Under the pieces are notes generated by a model that was not told the origin of the DNA, ran no database searches, and saw only the letters and a list, made by a program, of their open reading frames with translations. Of a stretch of 10,458 bases of DNA, positions 1,168 to 10,458 are shown piece by piece (the first letter of the stretch is position 1; each line of letters opens with the position of its first letter). Origin of the DNA: a virus. Its lineage: Duplodnaviria; Heunggongvirae; Uroviricota; Caudoviricetes. The stretch is from IMG/VR virus record IMGVR_UViG_2585427789_000026. One strand, given 5' to 3'. Both the position numbers and the translations under genes were made by a program.

Positions 1168-1375
1168 CAGCAAACCCTCAGGTGTTTCAAATAGCTGTTC
1201 TTTTTACGGAAATACTTATGAACTGGCTGGAATAAAGTGCAAGAAAATGTGACTACTACCTCATTTTTATCTGACATGATCTGTTGCCACTCGCTGCCAA
1301 ATTGTCGCGCTAAAGCTGATTAGCACGGTGATATTTGATACTCTGGCAGACAGCAGAAATAACGGATTTAACCTA

Positions 1376-1438
1376 ATGATGAATGACGGTAAGCAACAAT
1401 CTACCTTTTTGTTTCACGATTACGCGCAACACCCCTGA
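1376..1438 (+). pseudogene. sbcB: Exonuclease I (sbcB) 5' remnant: first 16 codons, then divergent sequence and stop
   Basis: ATGATGAATGACGGTAAGCAACAATCTACCTTTTTGTTTCACGATTAC encodes MMNDGKQQSTFLFHDY, the recalled N-terminus of E. coli ExoI, at the expected distance and divergent orientation from dacD. After about nt 1424 the frame reads AQHP-stop instead of ETFGTHPALD. Confidence 0.6.
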
Positions 1439-1478
1439 GAACCGCCATGAACAAGGGTTTCATGATTTGTGATTTTAG

Positions 1479-1502
1479 TTTGGTACGCAATTTGGTACAC
1501 AA
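1479..1502. repeat. Tandem 12-bp direct repeat TTTGGTAC(G/A)CAA x2 in non-coding junction region
   Basis: Seen directly: tttggtacgcaa (1479-1490) followed immediately by tttggtacacaa (1491-1502), 11 of 12 identical. No credible ORF on either strand across 1439-1907. Confidence 0.5.
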
Positions 1503-1907
1503 CACAATTTTCACTTCAGCGGGTAGTCATCAAACTCACCATAACGAGCATCGTTGATGATGTATGTGATCACCACAAATATCACATCTGGACTAGTTCC
1601 GTCTTCATGCGCAGGTATCTGTTCACGCCTCCCTTTCTGCAAATCCTAAAGATGAGATTTTGGGGTTTTGGGATATCTTTTTATCCTCAGTTCTCTATCC
1701 ATTCTACAAAGCAGTAATGAACCATCACCGTGTGATAGTGAGGCATCCGCTACGTTAAGCGCAGAGAAATGATGCAGTGGTGGTCGGACTGGATTGATGA
1801 AAAGGTGTAGCAACCAACATTGCTATATCTCAGATAGCACAAAGCCTTGCAATCCAGTGCAAAGCTTTGTGTGTCTCAGTTTTGTCTCATAGGTAACTCT
1901 GTGTTAA

Positions 1908-2195
1908 CTACGATGCAAGAATCCATACCAATAAGCATCCGATAATTGGGAAAGAAAAATCCATCAGGCTTGCCACATCCCATGCACGCGGATCAAAACC
2001 GCCCCACCACGGCATGTTAATCCGCTTGCCATGCCCGAACATTTCAATCCAGCGATATTCTGCCTGGGTGTGTTCACGAGCAATGAAGAACGTACAACCG
2101 GCTATCGCACCGTAAGCCCAGTTTCCGGTAAAAAGACCAACCAGTACCTGTGCGACCACAGCGCAAAGTGCGTGATGAATTGGGGTTTTATCCAT
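1908..2195 (-). CDS. Hypothetical small membrane protein (95 aa, two hydrophobic segments), joined stop-to-start to tailspike
   Basis: ORF with ATG at 2193-2195 directly abutting the tailspike TAG stop (2196-2198), giving TAGATG on the coding strand. Two hydrophobic stretches (ALCAVVAQVLVGLFTGNWAYGAIAGCTFFIA and LMDFSFPIIGCLLVWILAS). No family recognised. Confidence 0.55.
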   Translation of the reverse strand: MDKTPIHHALCAVVAQVLVGLFTGNWAYGAIAGCTFFIAREHTQAEYRWIEMFGHGKRINMPWWGGFDPRAWDVASLMDFSFPIIGCLLVWILAS

Positions 2196-4781
2196 CTACT
2201 CTATCTCTTTTGCTTTTTTAATTATCAATTCAAGCTCTGTTAAACGAGACTCAATGCGTTCACACCTTCTTCGCTGGAATGCAGCCTCCAACCACAAACA
2301 TTCATCTGGACGCAATCCCCAACGCTCACCAGCATGTACAACCAGTTCCGTGTCACCAGTATCGTATTCTTCAAAGTATTCGTGAACGATGTCTTCTCCT
2401 TCAGGGGATTTAGCTATAAATGACACCTTGCGCTGTGCCATTACAGGTTGGTACTCATCATCCCATTTATCATGACATAGCAAGCCAAATCTTGTTCCAT
2501 CTATCCCCTTTGCAAGAAACGCATCTCTTACCTGCTGTGCAATTGCTCCGAAATGCCAACGAGCAGTATCCGAACCTTTAGCCTTAATATCGGACAACCA
2601 CTGGTAAACGATAATATTTACGTCACCCCATGCGTCAAGAATTGCATCCTGATCCACCTCCATGATTTCTGAAAGTTGCTCTACTGTCAGTGGCTTTGTT
2701 TTCAATGTCTGGTCTGAAGTATTTATTGCCCCATTAGTTGCATATACTTGCGTCCACCGTTTAGATGATGTCCCACATGATGACGTATTATCTTTATTAG
2801 CACTTATATAGCCATTAACCTCCGCTGACTGACCGATATACGAATATGAAGATGTTGATAAGGGAGATTTAAATATCCATTGAGCATTGGTAAAGTCATA
2901 AATACCGGTATCACCTTTTTCACTAACATGAAAAGTTACATTCCGTAACGTATTCTTTGCATCATAACGGGCGGCTTGTGTTGTTGCCCTCGAAACAGTG
3001 AATCCTTTGTCATCAAGGTTTGCCTGCTCTATGACTTCACCACCAGGCATAATTTTACCAAGGCTTAACAAACCAGAGTTAGTGACAATATCATGGGTTG
3101 AATCAATGATAATACCAGGCTGATTTCTTGATGTTGTTTTTACATGCATTACCTGTTGTGGCATTAATGTGTAAAATGTAGTTTCTCGCCCACTATCACC
3201 ATCTGGTATGCCATTTGTATTCCCCATTACAAGGTCATACCCACCTGCAATCATACGGAAAAACATTGCTTCTGGTTCATATGTAAGATTGCTAACATCT
3301 GGCGTTCCGGTATCATTTGGATCTGCTATTTCATAGGCTCTTCCTGCACCTGCCTGTATTTGCTGCACCCCAAGATAAACACCATCAAGTGTGTACTGAT
3401 GCAAATATTTTCTGGTTGAAGAATATGCAGATCCAGCCTGACAAAAATAAATAGCAGTACCGTCACACGCAACTGTTTGCATATCCCTCACAAAATCGGC
3501 AATTTCAAATTCAAAAGTTGCTTCATTACGATAATCGTAATTGTACGCCTGCGGGTTAATAAATTTGCTGGTATCAAATACTTTTACATAATAGCGAATT
3601 TGATCTGGTGTTGATGGGCTCTCACCAGGGCCAACATAACGTTTTGCTGTAGTAATCAGCCATCGACTCATAGGGTCGGTGCATAAAACATTTACCTGAT
3701 TCTCGTAACCATCTTCCCATATGAGAAAAAACTCTGGTTCAATTTCACCACCATCAGTAGGGGTGAATCTGGTGATATACTTTGCGCGATCCTCTCCTTT
3801 AGCTGTGCCAGCTAACCCCCATATCTGTAACTGGCCTCTTGTGTTACGAAAACCAACGCGCCCTATGGTTAAACCAAGACATTGATGTCCTAATTCTCTA
3901 CTACCTTTAGTCTCCCAAAGAGGAGTTAACTCTTCATTCCCAAACCAATTATAAGCAACAACTTTATTAACTTCGTCACCAGAACTAACGCTGCCACTCA
4001 CATTTACCAAGCAATAAAGAACACTGTCATAATAATCAAGAACAGCACCCTGTATGACAGTATTTTTAATTGTTGCCAGTCGCAACCCTGACTTAACATG
4101 ATTAGGAGTAGAAGGTCTGAAACCTGTATACATCCCCTTTTTTATAGTTTGTATTCTTTTTTCAGTAAAATCAGCATCTGGCAGTAATCGATTCTCTGTG
4201 CGAAAATAGCCATTTATATACTTATTTCCATCAAAAACTTGATCTGTTATATATGTATTACCCCTTAGATCAACAATCCTTCCTGTGATTTGTTTTTCTA
4301 ACTCTTGAAAAGATAATGTGTCATCGGTGATGCCATCACCTTTTGCTCCCCATCCGCGAGGGTCAGCGTCATCACGCCACCGAGACATCTGCAATTCATG
4401 ATATTTTTTAGCACCTTCCGGGTCTTCTAATTGTTGTCTTAATTGGTCAGGATCGTACTTAAGCACATTCGGAAAATAGAACTGCTGCGTACCATATGCA
4501 TCGTAAACAGCCATAGAATGGCCTTGCACGGTAACGAATTTGGAAATCTGTCCGTTGTATACCGGGTATCCAGCAGCATTGATAACGATTGGCTGTGGCA
4601 CCTGAACATAAGTACCATCTTCTCGTTCCAGATATACTGGAATCTGGTTTTCTGGATTTACCGGATCTGTGTCAATCTTACCGATATAAATTTTTCCATT
4701 TGCTACGGTTTTAAAAGAGCTAGCCATTGTGAAGAGTTGCGATGGCATCCCAATTACAACATTTGGGGTTATATCAGGCAT
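2196..4781 (-). CDS. Phage tailspike: P22-type N-terminal head-binding domain, pectate-lyase-like beta-helix central domain, C-terminal intramolecular chaperone (peptidase S74-like) domain
   Basis: N-terminus [17 protein letters not shown]...[27 protein letters not shown]...[15 protein letters not shown]...NVLKYDPDQ aligns closely with the P22 gp9 / HK620 head-binding domain as recalled. Central [12 protein letters not shown] motif is typical of pectate-lyase-superfamily depolymerases. C-terminal ~173 aa begins SDQTLK (Ser codon 2715-2717), fitting the S-x4-K self-cleavage signature of tail-fibre chaperone domains. Start chosen at ATG 4779-4781 (AGGA 8 nt upstream); the ORF-track start at 4874 has no ribosome-binding site. 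Confidence 0.85.
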
Positions 4782-5197
4782 ATTAGTCATCCTGTTTGAA
4801 GATTTAGATATTGAAGAAAACGGAATGACTGCAGACAAAGATGCAATTGTTTTGAAAAATAACCTTCTATTCATTTAAAAACCATGCAACATGAACAAAA
4901 CGATTATTTTACAATACTCAAGAATCTTGATCAACAGGCATATTATTTATGCGCTTAATGCGTCACTTACAAAAATAAAAACAAGTAATACCTTTATTCC
5001 TATCGTCCATGATTTTTATTTTCAAACATTATTAAATAACAATTCCTATTTATAATATCTGTCATTTAATTTGCTCCAGATACAAGGAATCGCCGCAGCA
5101 TGGCTACGGTGAGCATTTGTTACATACCGAAACGGTACGATTGTTGATTTGTACAGTAGGTTTTACGATGCCATTCCACCCATTTGGTGAGGCATTG

Positions 5198-5455
5198 ATG
5201 ATGTACAGCAAATACGATGAGGCGCAGTTCCACTTGAGGCTTACGCACGAGTTGCACGCTAAGATTAAGCAGCGTGCAAAAATGAATAACAGGTCTATCA
5301 ATTCCGAAATTGTGGCTACGATGGAAGAATCACTCTCCAAACCATCACCTGTAAGCGGGTATCGTGATGAAGAAGAGAGGCTGGACTCATTAATCTCGGA
5401 ACGAGTAAAAGAAGTTGCGGCTGATATCCTTAGAAAAGAAAAAACCCGCGATTAA
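5198..5455 (+). CDS. mnt: Mnt-like ribbon-helix-helix repressor
   Basis: Translation MMYSKYDEAQFHLRLTHELHAKIKQRAKMNNRSINSEIVATMEESLSKPSPVSGYRDEEERL... aligns along its length with P22 Mnt as recalled (…FNFRMP…GRSMNSE…SKPSPVTGYRNDAERL…). GGTGAGG lies 5 nt upstream of the ATG at 5198; a second ATG follows at 5201. Confidence 0.8.
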   Translation: MMYSKYDEAQFHLRLTHELHAKIKQRAKMNNRSINSEIVATMEESLSKPSPVSGYRDEEERLDSLISERVKEVAADILRKEKTRD

Positions 5456-5463
5456 GCGGGTTT
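5442..5463. terminator. Bidirectional intrinsic terminator between convergent mnt and the antirepressor operon
   Basis: Perfect 8-bp stem aaacccgc / gcgggttt with 6-nt loop gattaa, flanked by an A-run upstream (a U-tract for the minus-strand transcript) and ttt on the plus strand. It overlaps the mnt stop codon and lies 7 bp from the stop of the 73-aa ORF. Confidence 0.55.
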
Positions 5464-5469
5464 AGTTGG

Positions 5470-5691
5470 TTAGTTATCAAAAAGTCCGTACGTTTCTTCT
5501 TCTTCAGGTGTAAGGGGAAGAATCTCTACTCTATCTATAGATACCTTTTCAATGTACCCATGAGGCCTACTTAAAATTAAAGCTCTCTCATGCCACAGAA
5601 CTCCAAGAATGTGATACCTTCCAGCATCGCCTTTTACCCTGGCTCTTCCTTTGATTCTTGGCGGCATAATGCCATATTTTTTCTTTGCCAT
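5470..5691 (-). CDS. Hypothetical 73-aa protein (basic N-terminus, acidic C-terminus), translationally coupled to the upstream antirepressor
   Basis: Its ATG (5689-5691) overlaps the TAA stop of the upstream gene (5691-5693) as TAATG; it ends just before the bidirectional terminator. No family recognised. Confidence 0.5.
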   Translation of the reverse strand: MAKKKYGIMPPRIKGRARVKGDAGRYHILGVLWHERALILSRPHGYIEKVSIDRVEILPLTPEEEETYGLFDN

Positions 5692-6416
5692 TATGCAACA
5701 TTACTCCCATGAATAAGGTGTTGTAGTGCTTTAACACCTTCCTCATTGTAGCGGAACGCTTCCACCTGTTTGCTGGAATGCGCAGATTTATCCAGGAAGA
5801 ACTTCCCGTACTGCTCAGTTTTGAGGTTGTTTGCGTTAGCAATGCGACCAATCTTGTTGGCCGTTACTCCAAGCTGCTCTGCAACCTCCCCTGCTGAGTA
5901 GTAATGCTCTTCTATTGCCGGAAGAGGTATTGCATTAAAACCAACGAGCGGGTTGATTATACTTGCTGCCGCTGTCTGCTTTGCCTCCGGCGCAAGATTT
6001 GGCATCAGATCGAACAGATTGGTAACAGCTTCAACCGTCATTTTCAATGTTCGCGCTTGACGATACTCAACAAGTCCACTCGCTGATTTACCGCTTTTAA
6101 TGTGCGCTTCCTGCATACTTTCAAGTTTGTCTACAAGTGTTCGGCGAACTGCTTTAGATTCGCGAGCAGCAACACGAAGCGCCTGCTTGATAGTCATGGA
6201 GATAACATCAATGTCAGCCCCGTTTTTCCGACCTACACTTTTTGTGTAGGTCTCGCCTTCCAATTCATCCTCAATTTTCTCGATGAATTTGTTGTTACGT
6301 ACTGATGGCTCTCCACATAACTTGCGAGCTTCATTAACCATCATCAGAAGACTTTGGCTGTCAATGGTTTTATCCGTGACAACGGATCCGATGTTTGCTA
6401 CATTCTTAAAAGTCAT
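5691..6416 (-). CDS. Phage antirepressor / regulatory protein, Rha-like N-terminus with KilA-C (ANT) C-terminal domain
   Basis: C-terminal YYSAGEVAEQLGVTANKIGRIANANNLKTEQYGKFF...FRYNEEGVKAL fits the KilA-C antirepressor domain pattern; N-terminal ...DSQSLLMMVNEARKL...VRNNKFIEKIE resembles Rha/ORF6N. Start chosen at ATG 6414-6416 (MTFKN..., AAGGA about 7 nt upstream) rather than the ORF-track TTG at 6503. Confidence 0.65.
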   Translation of the reverse strand: MTFKNVANIGSVVTDKTIDSQSLLMMVNEARKLCGEPSVRNNKFIEKIEDELEGETYTKSVGRKNGADIDVISMTIKQALRVAARESKAVRRTLVDKLESMQEAHIKSGKSASGLVEYRQARTLKMTVEAVTNLFDLMPNLAPEAKQTAAASIINPLVGFNAIPLPAIEEHYYSAGEVAEQLGVTANKIGRIANANNLKTEQYGKFFLDKSAHSSKQVEAFRYNEEGVKALQHLIHGSNVA

Positions 6417-6485
6417 TAGGCATTCCTTATGTGGTAGTAAGGGTGTGACATAGGCCGCCAGCAGCACACTGGCGGTTTTCTTTTG
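6411..6485 (+). ncRNA. Putative sar-like antisense RNA covering the start codon and ribosome-binding site of the Rha/KilA-C antirepressor
   Basis: Candidate promoter GTGACA (6376-6381), 17-bp spacer, TACATT (6399-6404) would start transcription near 6411 and end at the terminator above, about 70 nt. The geometry mirrors the P22 sar antisense RNA in the arc-ant region. Confidence 0.35.
6454..6485 (+). terminator. Plus-strand intrinsic terminator in the intercistronic region between the two antirepressor genes
   Basis: Stem ccgccag (6455-6461) / ctggcgg (6469-6475), 7-nt loop, followed on the plus strand by ttttcttttg (6476-6485). The minus-strand side has no U-tract. Confidence 0.55.
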
Positions 6486-6503
6486 CGCAGTCCGGCGCAC
6501 CAA

Positions 6504-7142
6504 TCAATGAATCCATTCCTCGCCGCGAAGTTTTGCCAGCATTGGCTGAGCGTTCTTTACGACAAAATTGTTGGTATCAAGATTCTTCATTTCACGAAGA
6601 AGTGATTTCTTGGTTTCTTCTGACATGTAGCGAGTCTCATATGCAATATCGTAAATCCTTCCTGAAAGCTCAGAACCAATTTGCTTCATTCCTGGGTAGA
6701 TGTGTTTGCACATTTGTTGACTCTTCTCCATCCACAATTGTAAGTAGCAGAGATTAACCAGCTCTTCGTCAGTGAACTGTTTTGCAATCGGTGAGCATTC
6801 TGCCTGCCGATCCAAAATATCCAGCACCCAGCGGCGGAACTCTTTGGCCTTGGGCGTAGAAGCAAACATCGCCACCAAGTGAGCGCCTCGGAGTGAGTAA
6901 ACTCTGACCGATTTGTTACGTAAGCTATTGTTTATTCCGTTGACCTTCATATTGAGGGTCAATGACATTGAGTCGGAAAATTCGTCAGCATTACGGGCAT
7001 AAATTTGGCTGATGGCATCAGTTTTTTTATAGCCGAGAGCCTTAGCTAGTTCGGTGGAGGTAAACCAGATAGACCCGCCCTCTGTTACAGGGTTAAAAGT
7101 GAATCCTTGGAAGTTATAATCTGATTTTGCTACAATATTCAT
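6504..7142 (-). CDS. Phage antirepressor with Bro-N / AntA-type N-terminal domain
   Basis: N-terminal ...FQGFTFNPVTEGGSIWFTSTELAKALGY...VYSLRGAHLVAMFASTPKAKEFRRWVLDILD matches the Bro-N / antirepressor N-domain pattern. Start chosen at ATG 7140-7142 (MNIVAKSDYNFQ, AAGGAAA 6 nt upstream), downstream of the arc stop; the ORF-track start at 7247 overlaps arc. Confidence 0.65.
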   Translation of the reverse strand: MNIVAKSDYNFQGFTFNPVTEGGSIWFTSTELAKALGYKKTDAISQIYARNADEFSDSMSLTLNMKVNGINNSLRNKSVRVYSLRGAHLVAMFASTPKAKEFRRWVLDILDRQAECSPIAKQFTDEELVNLCYLQLWMEKSQQMCKHIYPGMKQIGSELSGRIYDIAYETRYMSEETKKSLLREMKNLDTNNFVVKNAQPMLAKLRGEEWIH

Positions 7143-7220
7143 GTTAGTTTCCTTGAGTACGGTTACTGACATAGAGGCCCGGTTTGTGTTCGCGCACTGC
7201 CGGGCTTCACTATTTTTATT
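7143..7220 (+). ncRNA. Putative second sar-like antisense RNA covering the ribosome-binding site of the Bro-N antirepressor
   Basis: Candidate promoter TTGGAA (7107-7112), 18-bp spacer, TACAAT (7131-7136) would start transcription at about 7143, beside the Bro-N start codon, and run about 70 nt to the hairpin and T-tract at 7174-7220. Same geometry as the 6411-6485 unit. Confidence 0.3.
7174..7220 (+). terminator. Plus-strand terminator-like hairpin with T-rich tail at the arc 3' end, upstream of the Bro-N gene
   Basis: GC stem gcccgg (7177-7182) / ccgggc (7200-7205) with extension, followed on the plus strand by ttcactatttttatt. The minus-strand side has no U-tract. Confidence 0.4.
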
Positions 7221-7389
7221 GGATGACAACATCGCCCTTTGCCTCAAGTTTCATTAATAACTCCATTCGATAAGCTATCTCTGCCTGAATTGACCTATGG
7301 CATCTTTTTGCTGATTCGCGGATATGTGAATCAACCTTTTCTGTAAAACGAACCTGACGCGGCTTGATGGAAGATATCTTTTCAGTCAT
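7216..7389 (-). CDS. arc: Arc-like ribbon-helix-helix repressor (57 aa; not in the supplied ORF track)
   Basis: Hand translation of the complement strand: MTEKISSIKPRQVRFTEKVDSHIRESAKRCHRSIQAEIAYRMELLMKLEAKGDVVIQ-stop. It aligns with P22 Arc as recalled (…PQFNLRWPREVLDLVRKVAEENGRSVNSEIYQRVMESF…). AGGAG lies 6 nt upstream of the ATG at 7387-7389. Confidence 0.7.
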   Translation of the reverse strand: MTEKISSIKPRQVRFTEKVDSHIRESAKRCHRSIQAEIAYRMELLMKLEAKGDVVIQ

Positions 7390-7435
7390 TATGCACTCCT
7401 GTTTTTGAAAAACTCATAATCTCACTTTTTGTAGT

Positions 7436-7467
7436 TTGATTATTCACTCACACTCAGTATGAGTCAA
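7436..7467. promoter_or_regulatory. Overlapping divergent promoters with candidate operator (palindrome ACTCA-gta-TGAGT plus ACTCA repeats) between arc and the CI-like gene
   Basis: Minus strand: TTGACT (complement of 7462-7467), 17 bp, AATAAT (complement of 7439-7444), reading into arc. Plus strand: TTGATT (7436-7441), about 16 bp, TATGAG, a weaker promoter reading into the CI-like gene. The 13-bp palindrome at 7452-7464 overlaps both; further ACTCA half-sites at 7412 and 7445. Confidence 0.4.
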
Positions 7468-7488
7468 TGAATTTTTTATGGTGAACTA

Positions 7489-8130
7489 ATGAATTTTGAC
7501 GATCAATTCCCATCAAGAGTATCTCTGGCAAGACAGTCCAGGGGTATGACGCAGGCGCAGTTGTCAAAATTAGCTGGTGTTGTTCAACGTCAAATAGCTG
7601 CATACGAGGGTGGTGAGGCTAAACCACGGCTTCGGGTATTGCAGGCATTAGCCAACGCATTAGGTACTACGGCTGAGTGGTTAGCTCTAGGTGAAGGTCA
7701 GGGTCCGGGAACAAAAAACGTCATGCCTGACGTTCTGGTAAAGCAAATACCAATTCTCAAACTAGATGAAGTTATGCATTACCTAAACACAGGTGAACAT
7801 TCATCGTCTAGATTTCATCCTGCAATATACAATGTTGGTGACTCTGCATTTGCATTGACTATTGAAGGTGAAGCTATGACTACAAGTTCAGGTATTAGCT
7901 TTCCCAGAGGATCGGTTGTCACGTTCAGCCCTCTAGTAAAAGCTAAAAGCAAAGATTATGTAATAGCATCATTGGATAAAGAGCAAATATTGAGCTTCAA
8001 ACAGGTTTACATTGGTGAAATAGAGACAAACCTAGTATCCCTAAACCCAATGTATCCTAATATTCTTGTTAGAAATGAAGATGTTAGTATTTTGGCAACC
8101 GCAGTTTACCTTGAAATCCCGTTGCTTTGA
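7489..8130 (+). CDS. CI-like repressor (XRE-type HTH plus LexA/S24-like C-terminal domain) with catalytic Ser and cleavage site replaced
   Basis: N-terminal HTH (…GMTQAQLSKLAGVVQRQIAAYEGG…); C-terminal GDSAFALTIEGEAM…SFPRG…LSFKQV…LNPMYP aligns with lambda CI GDSAFWLEVEGNSM…SFPDG…FTFKKL…LNPQYP. The G-x-S-M nucleophile position reads Ala (GCT 7873-7875) and the Ala-Gly scissile position reads Asp-Glu. Confidence 0.8.
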   Translation: MNFDDQFPSRVSLARQSRGMTQAQLSKLAGVVQRQIAAYEGGEAKPRLRVLQALANALGTTAEWLALGEGQGPGTKNVMPDVLVKQIPILKLDEVMHYLNTGEHSSSRFHPAIYNVGDSAFALTIEGEAMTTSSGISFPRGSVVTFSPLVKAKSKDYVIASLDKEQILSFKQVYIGEIETNLVSLNPMYPNILVRNEDVSILATAVYLEIPLL

Positions 8131-8396: not shown

Positions 8397-8931
8397 TCAC
8401 TGCTGTGTTGCCTCAGTGGCAAGCAGCGGTCTGATGGCATTTGCAGCGTTACTTAATGCTCTTTCATAGGCTGGCGTTCCTGCTTTGGTGTTTGCCAGAC
8501 GTAAGAGCGCATTCCTGGCCATAGGGCTTTCATAAACCCTCGACATAAGGCCAATCCCTGTTTCCCCAGCCAATAGCGCGCCTCCGGTTTTTAGGTTACC
8601 AATAACCCTTACCAAAGGCGCGAGTGTCATGCCAGTCTTCGTCACAACATTAGCCTCAGATGCTCTTTTGGTAGCATCGAGAATAGATAACATCCCCTCT
8701 ATCTCTTTTCCGTTCTTCCCACCAAATACAGTTTTAAACACCTGACCATTTGCTTGTTTTTGCAGCTTGCCAAGCTCGGTCATCATTTTCTGAGGGCTGT
8801 CACCTACCTTGTCAGCTATTTTGCTGATATATGCCGCCCTTAGCATGTCTTTACCTTTTTGATCGAGTTTCCCGTACAATCGAGCTATATCTGACCCATA
8901 TTGTCCATACACAATGGTATTTACAGCCTCG
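8397..8931 (-). pseudogene. 3' fragment of a phage late gene (putative DNA-ejection / internal virion protein, gp16-like by position), truncated by IS66 insertion
   Basis: The reading frame stays open upstream of the listed GTG (8912) straight into the IS66 end, with no convincing ribosome-binding site. The protein is low-complexity and Ala/Gly/Lys-rich. The gp16 assignment rests only on position relative to P22 gene order. Confidence 0.4.
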
Positions 8932-10458
8932 GTAAGCGGCTCGCCAGAACCGTATTGATATTTACTGAGAGGTCAGATCAACTTTCCAGGGCAACAGATC
9001 GCGTACCCGGTTTGCCGGCCAATCCTGGATATGCTCAATGACGTAACGCAGCCATTTTTCTGGTTCCACATTGTTCAGACGGCATGTGCCGATCAGCGAG
9101 TACAACACCGCCGCATGTTCGCCACCGCTGTCGGAACCCGCGAACAGCCAGTTTTTCCGGCCTACGGCCACTCCCCGTAAGGCGTTCTCTGCGATGTTGT
9201 TGTCGATTTCCACCCAGCCATTACTGCAGTACACGTTCAGGCCATCCCACTGTTTCAGCAGGTATGCGAACGCTTTTGCCGTATCCGAGTGACGCGACAG
9301 TGTTTTCATCTGAGTCTGTATCCAGTCATACAGTGACTGCATCAGTGGCGCGGCTCTGGCTTTTCTTGCCGCCAGACGCTGTTCTGCTGAACATCCCCGG
9401 ACTTCTGCCTCGATGGCATACAGTTCACCGATACGCTGCAGGGCTTCCGTGGTGATGTCGGTGGGCACTCTTGCATGCACATCGTGGATTTTTCTCCGGG
9501 CATGAGCCATACACGCGGCTTCCGTTATTCTGCCGGATTCGTATAACACCCGGTAACCACCGTAAGCATCGGCCTGAAGCACACCGCTGTAACCGGCCAG
9601 ATGATTTTGTGGATGGATACCTTTCCGGTCCGGTGAGTACGCGAACCAGACCGCCGGGGGCATTTCCGAACCGGCGTTACGGTCATCACGGACGTAGACC
9701 CACAGCCGGGCGGTCCGGGTTTTACCGCTGCCCGGCTCCTGGACCGGGACGGGGATATCATCAGCATGGACTTTACCGGGCATCAGCACATACTGGCGCA
9801 GGACGTCATACAGCGGCTCCAGCAGTTCAGCAACGGCACCTGTCCAGCGCCCCAGCGTGGCGCGGCTCAGCTCCACGCCCTGGCGACGGTATATTTCTGA
9901 CTGGCGGTATAACGGCAGATGGTCTGCATATTTCCCGGTAACAACATGGGCCAGAAGCCCCGCTCCGGCATAACTGCGTGCAATGGGTTTTGAAGGTACT
10001 GTTGCCTGCACGATATGGTCGCACCGACAACAGGCCAGTTTCGGACGTTGTGTTTCGATAACCTTAAAGGCGCTGCTGATAAGCTCCAGTTGCTCTGACA
10101 CATCACACCCCAGAGGACTGAGGTCACCACCACAGGCCGGGCAGCATTCCTCTTCCGGCCGGATGACCCGGGTTTCACGGGGAAGTGAGGCCGGTAACGG
10201 TTTACGGGCTGAAGACTGGCGCAGGGCGGATGGCAGTACCGGGTCATATTGCTCACCCAGCGTTTCCGCCATTTCTTCCTGAAGTGCGCTGATTCGCTCC
10301 TGTGCTTCCTGTATCTGCCGTTCGGTTTTAGCGCGAAGTTTTTCTGAGCTTTTACCGAACTGCATGCGCTGCAGTTTCGCAACCAGCGCCTTCAGCCGGT
10401 TGATTTCGGAAGCATAAGCCGCCACCCGCTGTGAGAGCAGGCGGTTGTATTTCGCCAT
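8932..10458 (-). mobile_element. IS66-family insertion sequence, right end, continuing beyond the window
   Basis: GC-rich block beginning GTAAGCGGC at 8932, consistent with the GTAA terminus typical of IS66-family inverted repeats as recalled, 30 bp from the transposase stop. Sharp composition change from the AT-rich phage sequence. Confidence 0.75.
8962..10458 (-). CDS. tnpC: IS66-family transposase (TnpC/orf3), N-terminally truncated by the window edge
   Basis: 498-aa ORF ending ...[11 protein letters not shown], with leucine-zipper-like N-region, CxxC...CxC zinc motif (CPACGG...CCRCDH) and a conserved catalytic core. The M at 10458 corresponds to an internal position in full-length IS66 TnpC as recalled, so the true start lies outside the window. 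Confidence 0.9.

What the first reader, a model, noticed from the sequence alone, without database searches (positions are those of the whole stretch)
2196..4781. Modular tailspike: P22-type head-binding domain, pectate-lyase-like depolymerase, self-cleaving C-terminal chaperone
The first ~110 residues are nearly collinear with the P22/HK620 tailspike head-binding domain. The body then switches to a different module starting with a [12 protein letters not shown] motif, and the last ~173 residues carry an S-x4-K signature (SDQTLK, Ser codon at 2715-2717) typical of C-terminal intramolecular chaperone domains that cleave themselves off after trimerisation. The glycan specificity is unknown and would determine the host receptor of this prophage lineage.
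Basis: partly seen in the sequence, partly recalled or inferred. Interest (0 to 1): 0.6.

Follow-up and report, generated by a model that had tools for sequence, protein, structure and literature searches.

The report
Prophage tailspike with five-bladed propeller body

Summary
The ORF (2196-4781, minus strand, 861 aa) is real and matches a RefSeq 'phage tailspike protein'.

Two of the three module calls hold:
- Residues 1-113 are a P22-type head-binding domain (Pfam E 4e-61).
- Residues 689-861 are an endosialidase-type self-cleaving chaperone domain. It matches 3GW6 at E 3e-33, with S689 and K694 on the catalytic Ser/Lys.

The residues lining the proposed GlcNAc pocket of Gp45 are conserved here: Q244, H299-Q300, Q435, D440, E502 and E504.

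The module is rare: 52 clusters among 1.84 billion representatives, and 14 of 5426 complete E. coli genomes. It is swapped among P22-like, epsilon15-like and T7-like adaptors. It sits in lysogens of four O-serogroups (O7, O15, O16, O120), so no single O-antigen is implied.

Whether the propeller only binds or also cleaves glycan is unresolved.

The parts
2196..4781 (-). Complete tailspike ORF, 861 aa (96.8 kDa) plus stop codon
   Evidence: ORF list and translation. Identical to the RefSeq CDS WP_032229949.1.
4443..4781 (-). Residues 1-113: P22-type head-binding (tail-docking) domain
   Evidence: Pfam PF09008 at E 4.2e-61, covering 1-113 of 113 model positions. Matches Sf6 gp14 (7SG7) at E 2e-58 and P22 tailspike N-terminal structures at E 1e-41 to 3e-47.
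4347..4442 (-). Residues 114-145: linker (LRQQLED...[15 protein letters not shown]), a junction shared by many tailspikes
   Evidence: Nearly identical in the CUS-3 tailspike. Also present in P0004 and in PDB 9VVR residues 231-257.
4194..4346 (-). Residues 146-196: small endosialidase-type N-terminal domain. Together with W144-G145 of the linker it carries the [12 protein letters not shown] motif (4317-4352).
   Evidence: Pfam PF12218 End_N_terminal at 24.3 bits, just below its cut-off of 26.3. 16 of 30 family members hit it. Residues 1-196 as a whole are 69% identical to CUS-3. AF2 pLDDT 78-89.
3162..4193 (-). Residues 197-540: five-bladed beta-propeller, the putative glycan-recognition module. 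The blades span about 233-538.
3882..3890 (-). G298-H299-Q300 motif. H and Q are invariant in the 30-sequence family alignment.
   Evidence: Conservation. Aligns with Gp45 G208-H209-G210, next to the cavity residue Thr211.
3267..3281 (-). Y501-E502-P503-E504-A505 motif. Both Glu are present in every sequence that covers them.
   Evidence: Conservation. Aligns with the E-A-E of Gp45.
2718..3161 (-). Residues 541-688: trimeric stalk. It includes a roughly 60-residue module (about 590-650) that recurs in tandem in other phage fibres, and a terminal stretch resembling the end of the endosialidase stalk.
   Evidence: Local hmmsearch shows profile positions 460-520 repeated 2-3 times in P0030, P0035, P0042 and others. 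Weak PF12219 End_tail_spike match at 658-688 (12.9 bits). The monomer model is low-confidence after residue 650.
2199..2717 (-). Residues 689-861: C-terminal intramolecular chaperone / self-cleaving domain (Peptidase S74), 20 kDa
   Evidence: Pfam PF13884 at E 4.2e-10. Matches 3GW6 at E 2.8e-33 over 204 residues, GA-1 3GUD at E 1.6e-14 and T5 pb1 4UW8. 35% identical to the CUS-3 chaperone domain.
2700..2717 (-). S689-D-Q-T-L-K694: predicted catalytic Ser/Lys dyad and scissile site (after S689)
   Evidence: Codons verified. S689 and K694 align with positions 911 and 916 of the K1F endosialidase. Cleavage after the conserved Ser was shown by mass spectrometry for another S74 fibre (PMC8217332).
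1908..2195 (-). 95-aa hydrophobic ORF starting directly after the tailspike stop codon; travels with the tailspike
   Evidence: Translation. phrog_1443 at E 1e-54, function unknown. Two hydrophobic segments. The same ORF lies downstream of the tailspike in 4 prophage contexts; the protein is identical in 3 of them and has a different accession in SW070919.

Best explanation
The gene encodes the trimeric tailspike of a P22-like temperate podophage, built on the plan of the CUS-3 endosialidase tailspike.

1. Residues 1-113 dock the spike onto the tail.
2. A conserved linker and a small endosialidase-type N-terminal domain follow.
3. Where CUS-3 has a six-bladed sialidase propeller, this protein has a five-bladed propeller of the phi11 Gp45 / P68 / 80alpha 'receptor-binding platform' lineage.
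4. The propeller engages a host surface sugar in its central pocket, lined by Q244, H299, Q300, Q435, D440, E502 and E504.
5. A short trimeric stalk is folded with the help of the C-terminal chaperone domain. That domain then cuts itself off after S689 through the S689/K694 dyad, giving a 77 kDa mature spike and a 20 kDa fragment.

I think it most likely (about 55%) that the propeller acts as a lectin-like binder of a common sugar such as an N-acetylhexosamine, and not as an O-serotype-specific depolymerase.

Shown here: domain homologies, predicted fold, conserved pocket residues, distribution. Inferred: trimer formation, self-cleavage, ligand, and binding versus cleavage.
For: Architecture:
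- Pfam and PDB sequence matches for both ends.
- BLASTP against CUS-3: residues 1-196 are 69% identical and 656-851 are 35% identical, while the middle is unrelated.

Fold:
- AF2 model has pLDDT 85-93 in the core.
- Foldseek top 8 are Staphylococcus phage receptor-binding proteins.

Homology, not just shared fold:
- 11 of 30 relatives reach Pfam PF21311.
- hhalign to Gp45 gives probability 86%, E 4.9e-6.

Pocket:
- The family-wide conserved Q244, H299/Q300 and Q435 align with Gp45 Gln165, the H209-Thr211 stretch and Gln330. These line the cavity modelled to hold GlcNAc.

Binding role:
- The platform domain is described only as a WTA/GlcNAc binder in phi11 and 80alpha.

Not O-type specific:
- Identical or near-identical spikes lie in lysogens with O7, O120, O16 and O15 gene clusters, at three integration sites.
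- Klebsiella phages with propeller-type receptor-binding proteins hit more capsule types (PMC12491483).
Against: - All functionally characterised tailspikes with a P22 head-binding domain that I know of are enzymes (P22, Sf6, HK620, CUS-3; established knowledge). A short-tailed phage needs a way through the O-antigen.
- Pocket residues conserved across very distant relatives, including three to four carboxylates, fit a catalytic or metal site as well as they fit a binding site.
- The window protein itself does not reach the PF21311 threshold, and identity to Gp45 is only 11-16%.
- The model is a monomer built from 30 sequences. I could not inspect its coordinates, so pocket placement rests on alignment to Gp45, not on geometry.
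- GlcNAc binding in the Gp45 cavity was modelled, not observed.
- In this window the prophage is defective, so this copy probably makes no virions.
Confidence: 0.55

Rival explanations
1. Same architecture, but the five-bladed propeller is a true receptor-destroying enzyme, a new glycosidase or lyase family. It would use the conserved carboxylates (D416, D440, E502, E504) to cleave a surface polysaccharide, as the sialidase propeller does in CUS-3.
For: - The module sits exactly where the catalytic propeller sits in CUS-3.
- It replaces enzymatic modules on P22-like, epsilon15-like and T7-like adaptors.
- H299, Q300, E502 and E504 are invariant or nearly so down to about 21% identity.
- Propeller folds are counted as depolymerase folds in Klebsiella prophages.
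- A common target such as colanic acid or ECA would also explain the mixed O-types.
Against: - The nearest relatives by sequence and structure are binders with no reported activity.
- The GH clans score lower than YjiK, glutaminyl cyclase and olfactomedin.
- The same E-x-E, D and Q residues occur in Gp45.
- There is no match to any CAZy-type Pfam family.
Confidence: 0.35
2. One reading: the body after [12 protein letters not shown] is a pectate-lyase-like right-handed beta-helix depolymerase.
For: The GAKGDG(I/V)TDDT motif does open many PF12708-type beta-helix spikes. The same linker and motif precede different bodies in PDB 9VVR and Dpo31/36. One distant relative hits PF12708 over its N-terminal part.
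Against: - No PF12708 or PF13229 hit at E<=1 on this protein.
- The motif region matches End_N_terminal and CUS-3.
- The AF2 core is a propeller.
- There is profile homology to the Gp45 propeller.
Confidence: 0.02
3. In this particular genome the gene is an inert leftover of a decayed prophage and does nothing for the cell. The ORF is intact only because the decay is recent.
For: - The window's prophage is cut by an IS66 element, with a truncated DNA-transfer gene.
- The matching locus in strain E100341 lacks head, portal and terminase genes and has several pseudogenes.
Against: - The 2586-base ORF has no defect.
- Its protein has the same RefSeq accession in three genomes inspected, including prophages with a full P22-type structural gene set (A3, though its capsid gene is marked frameshifted, and SW070919). 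The 1401-base core is at least 99.5% identical in all 14 genomes.
- This reading concerns the state of the locus, not what the protein is, so it can hold together with either explanation above.
Confidence: 0.5

Closest known systems
CUS-3 endosialidase tailspike (siaK1, ABQ88383; P22-like K1 prophage of E. coli RS218)
   Same: P22-type head-binding domain, the same linker and a small N-terminal domain with the GAxGDG motif (69% identity over residues 1-196). A propeller placed between that domain and a stalk. An S74 chaperone domain (35% identity over 656-851). The gene sits at the prophage end next to the antirepressor region.
   Different: The CUS-3 body is a six-bladed GH58 sialidase propeller with an inserted beta-barrel. 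Here residues 197-655 show no sequence similarity to it, there are no PF12217 or PF12195 hits, and the fold is five-bladed.
Receptor-binding 'platform' propeller of Staphylococcus phages (phi11 Gp45 5EFV, 80alpha gp61 6V8I, P68 tail fibre 6IAB, NF5 Gp17 9M7X; Pfam PF21311)
   Different: Those proteins belong to Gram-positive phages. They have a coiled-coil stem and C-terminal tower domains, with no head-binding domain and no S74 chaperone. Identity is 11-16%. The window protein itself does not reach the Pfam threshold.
P22, Sf6 and HK620 tailspikes
   Same: N-terminal head-binding domain (E 1e-41 to 2e-58) and role as the six spikes of a P22-type tail.
   Different: Their bodies are right-handed beta-helix endoglycosidases and they carry no detachable S74 domain.
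K1F endosialidase chaperone domain (3GW6) and other S74 fibres (GA-1 neck appendage, T5 pb1)
   Same: Full-length match to the chaperone domain with the Ser/Lys dyad in register. The predicted structure of the GA-1 neck appendage is the best viral structural match to the modelled region as a whole (BFVD E 3.8e-20 over 523 columns).
   Different: Different receptor modules and different phage types. No biochemical data exist for the GA-1 body.
Pectate-lyase-3 type beta-helix tailspikes (e.g. PDB 9VVR, Klebsiella Dpo31/Dpo36)
   Same: Only the linker and the WGAKGDG motif region (27-65 residues). For 9VVR, also the S74 domain.
   Different: The body fold differs: a beta-helix there, a propeller here.

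Membership tests
P22-type tailspike head-binding domain (PF09008) | Full-length sequence match above the curated cut-off at the N-terminus | tested here: met
   204.6 bits against a cut-off of 24, residues 1-113 on 1-113 of 113 model positions. Matches PDB Sf6 and P22 N-terminal domains.
P22-type tailspike head-binding domain (PF09008) | Encoded in a phage with a P22-type tail (gp4, gp10, needle, ejection proteins) | tested here: met
   Prophages in A3 and SW070919 that carry the identical spike encode gp4, gp10, portal, P22 capsid family and DNA-transfer proteins. The MLI121 prophage, with a near-identical spike, also encodes a tail needle knob protein. The window itself keeps only a DNA-transfer gene fragment.
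Peptidase S74 / C-terminal intramolecular chaperone domain | Sequence match above the curated cut-off at the C-terminus | tested here: met
   PF13884 at 40.2 bits against a cut-off of 22. 3GW6 at E 2.8e-33 over 204 residues.
Peptidase S74 / C-terminal intramolecular chaperone domain | Catalytic Ser and Lys five residues apart, in register with S911/K916 of endoNF | tested here: met
   S689 aligns with position 911 (Ala in the 3GW6 mutant) and K694 with K916. Codons verified.
Peptidase S74 / C-terminal intramolecular chaperone domain | Preceded by a trimeric beta-helical stalk whose folding it assists | tested here: inconclusive
   Only a weak End_tail_spike match at 658-688 (12.9 bits against a cut-off of 25). 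The monomer model is unreliable there.
Peptidase S74 / C-terminal intramolecular chaperone domain | Autoproteolytic release of the domain after trimerisation | not testable with these tools
   Needs expression. Predicted products are 76.9 kDa and 19.9 kDa.
Pectate-lyase-like right-handed beta-helix depolymerase (PF12708 / PF13229) | Profile match to a beta-helix family over the body | tested here: not met
   No such hit at E<=1 on the whole protein or at E<=0.1 on residues 131-688.
Pectate-lyase-like right-handed beta-helix depolymerase (PF12708 / PF13229) | Parallel beta-helix fold | tested here: not met
Endosialidase (GH58) tailspike | End_N_terminal domain | tested here: inconclusive
   24.3 bits against a cut-off of 26.3. 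However, residues 1-196 as a whole are 69% identical to CUS-3.
Endosialidase (GH58) tailspike | Six-bladed sialidase propeller (PF12217) with beta-barrel insertion (PF12195) | tested here: not met
Phage five-bladed propeller receptor-binding platform (PF21311) | Profile match above the curated cut-off | tested here: inconclusive
   No hit for the window protein. At E<=0.1, 11 of 30 relatives hit it, the best at E 3.8e-9, and at least P0024 and P0025 exceed the cut-off. hhalign of the family against Gp45 gives probability 86%, E 4.9e-6.
Phage five-bladed propeller receptor-binding platform (PF21311) | Five-bladed propeller fold closest to Gp45-type proteins | tested here: met
Phage five-bladed propeller receptor-binding platform (PF21311) | Polar central cavity (Gp45 Gln165, Thr211, Gln330) | tested here: met
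   Q244 and Q435 align with Gln165 and Gln330, and H299-Q300-C301 with H209-G210-Thr211. This rests on alignment only.
Phage five-bladed propeller receptor-binding platform (PF21311) | Binds a cell-wall sugar | not testable with these tools
   Needs binding assays.

The most novel reading that the evidence does not exclude
The propeller defines an uncharacterised family of receptor modules of Gram-negative podophages. It would either be a new glycan-cleaving enzyme family, or a lectin for a sugar common to many E. coli surfaces. Either would allow adsorption that does not depend on O-serogroup. That would be unusual for P22-like phages, whose spikes are the textbook case of serotype-specific O-antigen enzymes.
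Probability: 0.3. Interest if true: 0.65.

Novelty: new variant of a known kind. Interest (0 to 1): 0.42.

Why it matters
Tailspikes decide which bacteria a phage can attack, and they are used as typing and anti-virulence reagents. This spike shows that the receptor-binding propeller known from Staphylococcus phages has been grafted onto the endosialidase-type scaffold of E. coli podophages, and that it moves between at least four kinds of tail adaptor.

Near-identical copies sit in lysogens of four O-serogroups. The spike may therefore recognise something other than a single O-antigen. That would bear on host-range prediction from sequence and on the design of broad-range phages.

The practical correction is simple. 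The GAKGDG motif is a junction shared by beta-helix and propeller spikes, and it should not be read as a marker of a pectate-lyase fold.

Tried and rejected
1. Full-length AF2 with only 8 close homologs gave an unusable model (mean pLDDT 41.6). It was replaced by a model of residues 131-688 with 30 sequences.
2. Sequence searches of the body against PDB, with a single sequence and with a profile, found only chance-level hits to antibodies and a ribosomal protein.
3. tblastn against 50,697 phage records found no isolate that shares the body. The best records cover only the two ends.
4. A scan of one genome per species (GTDB) with conserved peptide patterns found nothing. This was expected, because the module occurs in only 14 of 5426 E. 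coli genomes.
5. I tested the idea that the spike targets the O7 antigen. The first host examined is O7, and 9 of 14 records are O7. Other hosts are O120, O16 (with its rfb cluster disrupted by IS1) and O15. A single O-type is therefore rejected as the explanation.
6. The AlphaFold-database fold library was not available.
7. Model coordinates are not exposed to scripts. Pocket residues could therefore not be mapped in 3D.
8. Literature searches for five-bladed or propeller tailspikes in P22-like or E. coli phages found no description of this type.
Full report
OBSERVATION

The minus strand carries an ORF whose stop codon is at 2196-2198. It can start at ATG 4781 (861 aa) or at ATG 4874 (892 aa). 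ATG 4781 is the real start for three reasons. From that Met the protein aligns residue for residue with the Sf6 and P22 tailspike N-termini. An AGGA lies 9 nt upstream. RefSeq annotates exactly this CDS as WP_032229949.1, 'phage tailspike protein'.

The motif [12 protein letters not shown] is at 4317-4352. The SDQTLK serine codon is at 2715-2717 and the lysine codon at 2700-2702. The part from S689 is 173 residues, 20.0 kDa.

THE TWO ENDS

Residues 1-113 match Pfam Head_binding over the whole model (E 4e-61). They also match solved head-binding domains of Sf6 gp14 (E 2e-58) and P22.

Residues 689-861 match Peptidase_S74 (E 4e-10). They match the crystallised chaperone domain of the K1F endosialidase, 3GW6, over 204 residues at E 2.8e-33. 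S689 lies on position 911 (Ala in the crystallised mutant) and K694 on K916. The chaperone domains of GA-1 and T5 pb1 also match.

In another S74 fibre, mass spectrometry placed the cut after the conserved Ser (PMC8217332). Here that predicts products of 76.9 kDa and 19.9 kDa. Self-cleavage itself is inferred, not shown.

THE BODY IS NOT A BETA-HELIX

There is no pectate-lyase or beta-helix Pfam hit even at E<=1. The GAKGDG motif falls in a stretch that matches End_N_terminal, the small N-terminal domain of endosialidases (24.3 bits against a cut-off of 26.3).

BLASTP against the endosialidase tailspike of the P22-like K1 prophage CUS-3 gives:
- 69% identity over residues 1-196 (head-binding domain, linker and this small domain);
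- 35% identity over 656-851 (end of the stalk and the chaperone domain);
- nothing in between.

The same linker and motif also precede other bodies in PDB entries 9VVR and Dpo31/36. The motif therefore marks a recombination junction, not a fold.

Residues 197-655 have no sequence match in Pfam, in PDB or in 50,697 phage records.

FINDING THE FOLD

A word-indexed search of 5.8 billion proteins found only eight clusters sharing the body (61-69% identity). A full HMMER profile search of 1.84 billion representatives found 52 clusters at E<=1e-3.

Some distant relatives exceed the curated threshold of Pfam PF21311, 'phage 5-bladed beta-propeller receptor-binding platform'. In total, 11 of 30 aligned relatives hit it at E<=0.1, the best at 3.8e-9.

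With this 30-sequence alignment, AlphaFold2 gave a usable model of residues 131-688. Mean pLDDT is 78, and 85-93 across 230-540. The model shows 20 strands in five groups of four. An earlier full-length attempt with eight sequences had failed.

- Foldseek against PDB: the top eight are the P68 tail fibre, the 80alpha receptor-binding protein, phi11 Gp45 and NF5, followed by endosialidase NF.
- Among predicted viral structures, the GA-1 neck appendage is best (E 3.8e-20).
- hhalign of the family against Gp45 aligns residues 239-520 with Gp45 159-423, at probability 86% and E 4.9e-6.

THE POCKET

Across the 30-39 sequences, which go down to about 21% identity, the conserved positions are Q244, G298-H299-Q300, W321, D416, Q435, D440, Y445, E502 and E504.

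In the alignment to Gp45:
- Q244 and Q435 fall on Gln165 and Gln330;
- H299-Q300-C301 fall on H209-G210-Thr211;
- I243 and M434 fall on Met164 and Met329.

These are the residues that the phi11 structure paper lists as lining the cavity modelled to hold GlcNAc (PMC4901313). E502 and E504 align with an E-A-E in Gp45, and D440 with an Asp.

This supports a functional central pocket.

STALK

Residues about 590-650 form a module that recurs two or three times in other fibres. Residues 658-688 weakly resemble the end of the endosialidase stalk.

DISTRIBUTION AND MOBILITY

The body's DNA occurs in 14 of 5426 complete E. coli genomes, always at 99.5% identity or more. It occurs in six IMG/VR contigs and in none of the GTDB species representatives.

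Homologs at 61-73% identity carry other N-terminal adaptors. These are an epsilon15-type N-terminus, a T7 tail-fibre N-terminal domain (PF03906), and a tail-spike N-terminal domain (PF18668). One relative carries two copies of the propeller module.

The identical spike, followed directly by a 95-aa membrane ORF (phrog_1443), lies in P22-like prophages at three sites: dacD-sbcB, ybhB-bioA and torT. The prophages in A3 and SW070919 carry a full set of P22-type structural genes, although the A3 capsid gene is marked frameshifted.

The window's copy belongs to the decayed dacD-sbcB prophage and is further cut by an IS66 element.

HOSTS

The first host examined is O7. A chimeric query of spike plus O7 wzy showed that 9 of the 14 records are O7. 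The others are:
- A3: O120;
- SW070919: O16, with the rfb cluster broken by IS1;
- MLI121: O15, which has no rhamnose genes.

Four O-antigen clusters for an essentially identical spike argue against a single O-serogroup receptor. A paper on Klebsiella prophages reports that propeller-type modules are the second commonest predicted depolymerase fold. It also reports that their activity in phages is unclear and that they go with broader host range (PMC12491483).

MECHANISM

Most likely this is a CUS-3-style spike in which the sialidase propeller has been exchanged for a phi11-type propeller. The propeller would recognise a surface sugar in its central pocket. The chaperone domain would fold the stalk and then cut itself off.

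On whether the propeller only binds or also cleaves:
- For binding only: the nearest relatives by sequence and structure are described only as binders of wall teichoic acid GlcNAc. They share the very pocket residues conserved here. GlcNAc-type sugars are common on E. coli surfaces.
- For cleavage: the known tailspikes of P22-like phages are enzymes. The module replaces enzymes on several adaptors. Conserved carboxylates in a propeller centre are typical of hydrolases.

I put binding only at about 55% and an enzyme at about 35%. The beta-helix reading is rejected (about 2%).

NOVELTY

The kinds of parts are all known, and mosaic spikes are the rule. RefSeq calls the gene only 'phage tailspike protein'. 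I found no paper describing a five-bladed, Gp45-type propeller in a tailspike of a P22-like or other E. coli phage. It is best filed as a new variant of a known kind, of moderate interest. Interest would be higher if the receptor proves independent of O-serogroup or if the propeller proves to be a new enzyme family.

Noticed in passing
window 1908-2195 (-): A 95-aa ORF starts one base after the tailspike stop codon (TAG then ATG). It has two hydrophobic segments and belongs to phrog_1443 (function unknown). The same ORF follows the same tailspike in prophages at three different integration sites, so the two genes travel as a cassette. Possibly a lysogenic-conversion or exclusion membrane protein.
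   Followed up: partly
window 8397-8912 (-) and 8962-10458 (-): An IS66-family transposase ORF (498 aa, running off the window) lies next to a 171-aa C-terminal fragment of a P22-type DNA-transfer (ejection) protein. Identity with related E. coli genomes stops at 8932. This suggests an IS66 insertion specific to this strain.
   Followed up: partly
window 5201-8130: A P22 immI-like region lies next to the tailspike. It holds an Arc-family repressor (5201-5455, +), two antirepressor-like genes (5691-6416, phrog_1726; 6504-7142, Bro-N plus P22AR_C), and a LexA-like HTH plus S24 repressor (7489-8130, +).
   Followed up: partly
window 1174-1900: Between dacD (1-1173, -) and the cassette, RefSeq annotates an S24 peptidase pseudogene with an internal stop (about 1511-1762 in window coordinates). 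This looks like the decayed junction of the prophage with the chromosome.
   Followed up: no
L001/L002 (E. coli E100341), relative to the window: In the O7 lineage the prophage sits between dacD and sbcB, and sbcB lies about 17-30 kb from the O-antigen gene cluster. Recombination that swaps the O-antigen could therefore carry the prophage along.
   Followed up: no
window 2830-3010 (residues about 590-650); proteins P0030, P0035, P0042, P0059 and others: A stalk module of about 60 residues (consensus N.LR.V...VS..G..G.YD.T...W) occurs once here. It occurs two or three times in tandem in other phage fibres that lack the propeller. It appears to be an independent building block with no Pfam family.
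   Followed up: partly
protein P0022 (1678 aa): One distant relative carries two copies of the N-terminal-domain-plus-propeller unit in a single polypeptide (residues 138-450 and 712-1237).
   Followed up: no
window 2700-4350 and 4650-5100: GC content falls to 35-42% across the small N-terminal domain, propeller and stalk, against 44-47% in the chaperone domain. It falls to 29-33% in the region upstream of the gene. This is consistent with modules of different origin.
   Followed up: no
L009 (E. coli SW070919) 35084-38286: The O16 O-antigen cluster of this lysogen is broken by IS1 copies: rfbA is truncated and rfbB/rfbD are not annotated. This host of an apparently complete prophage with the identical spike may be rough.
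   Followed up: no
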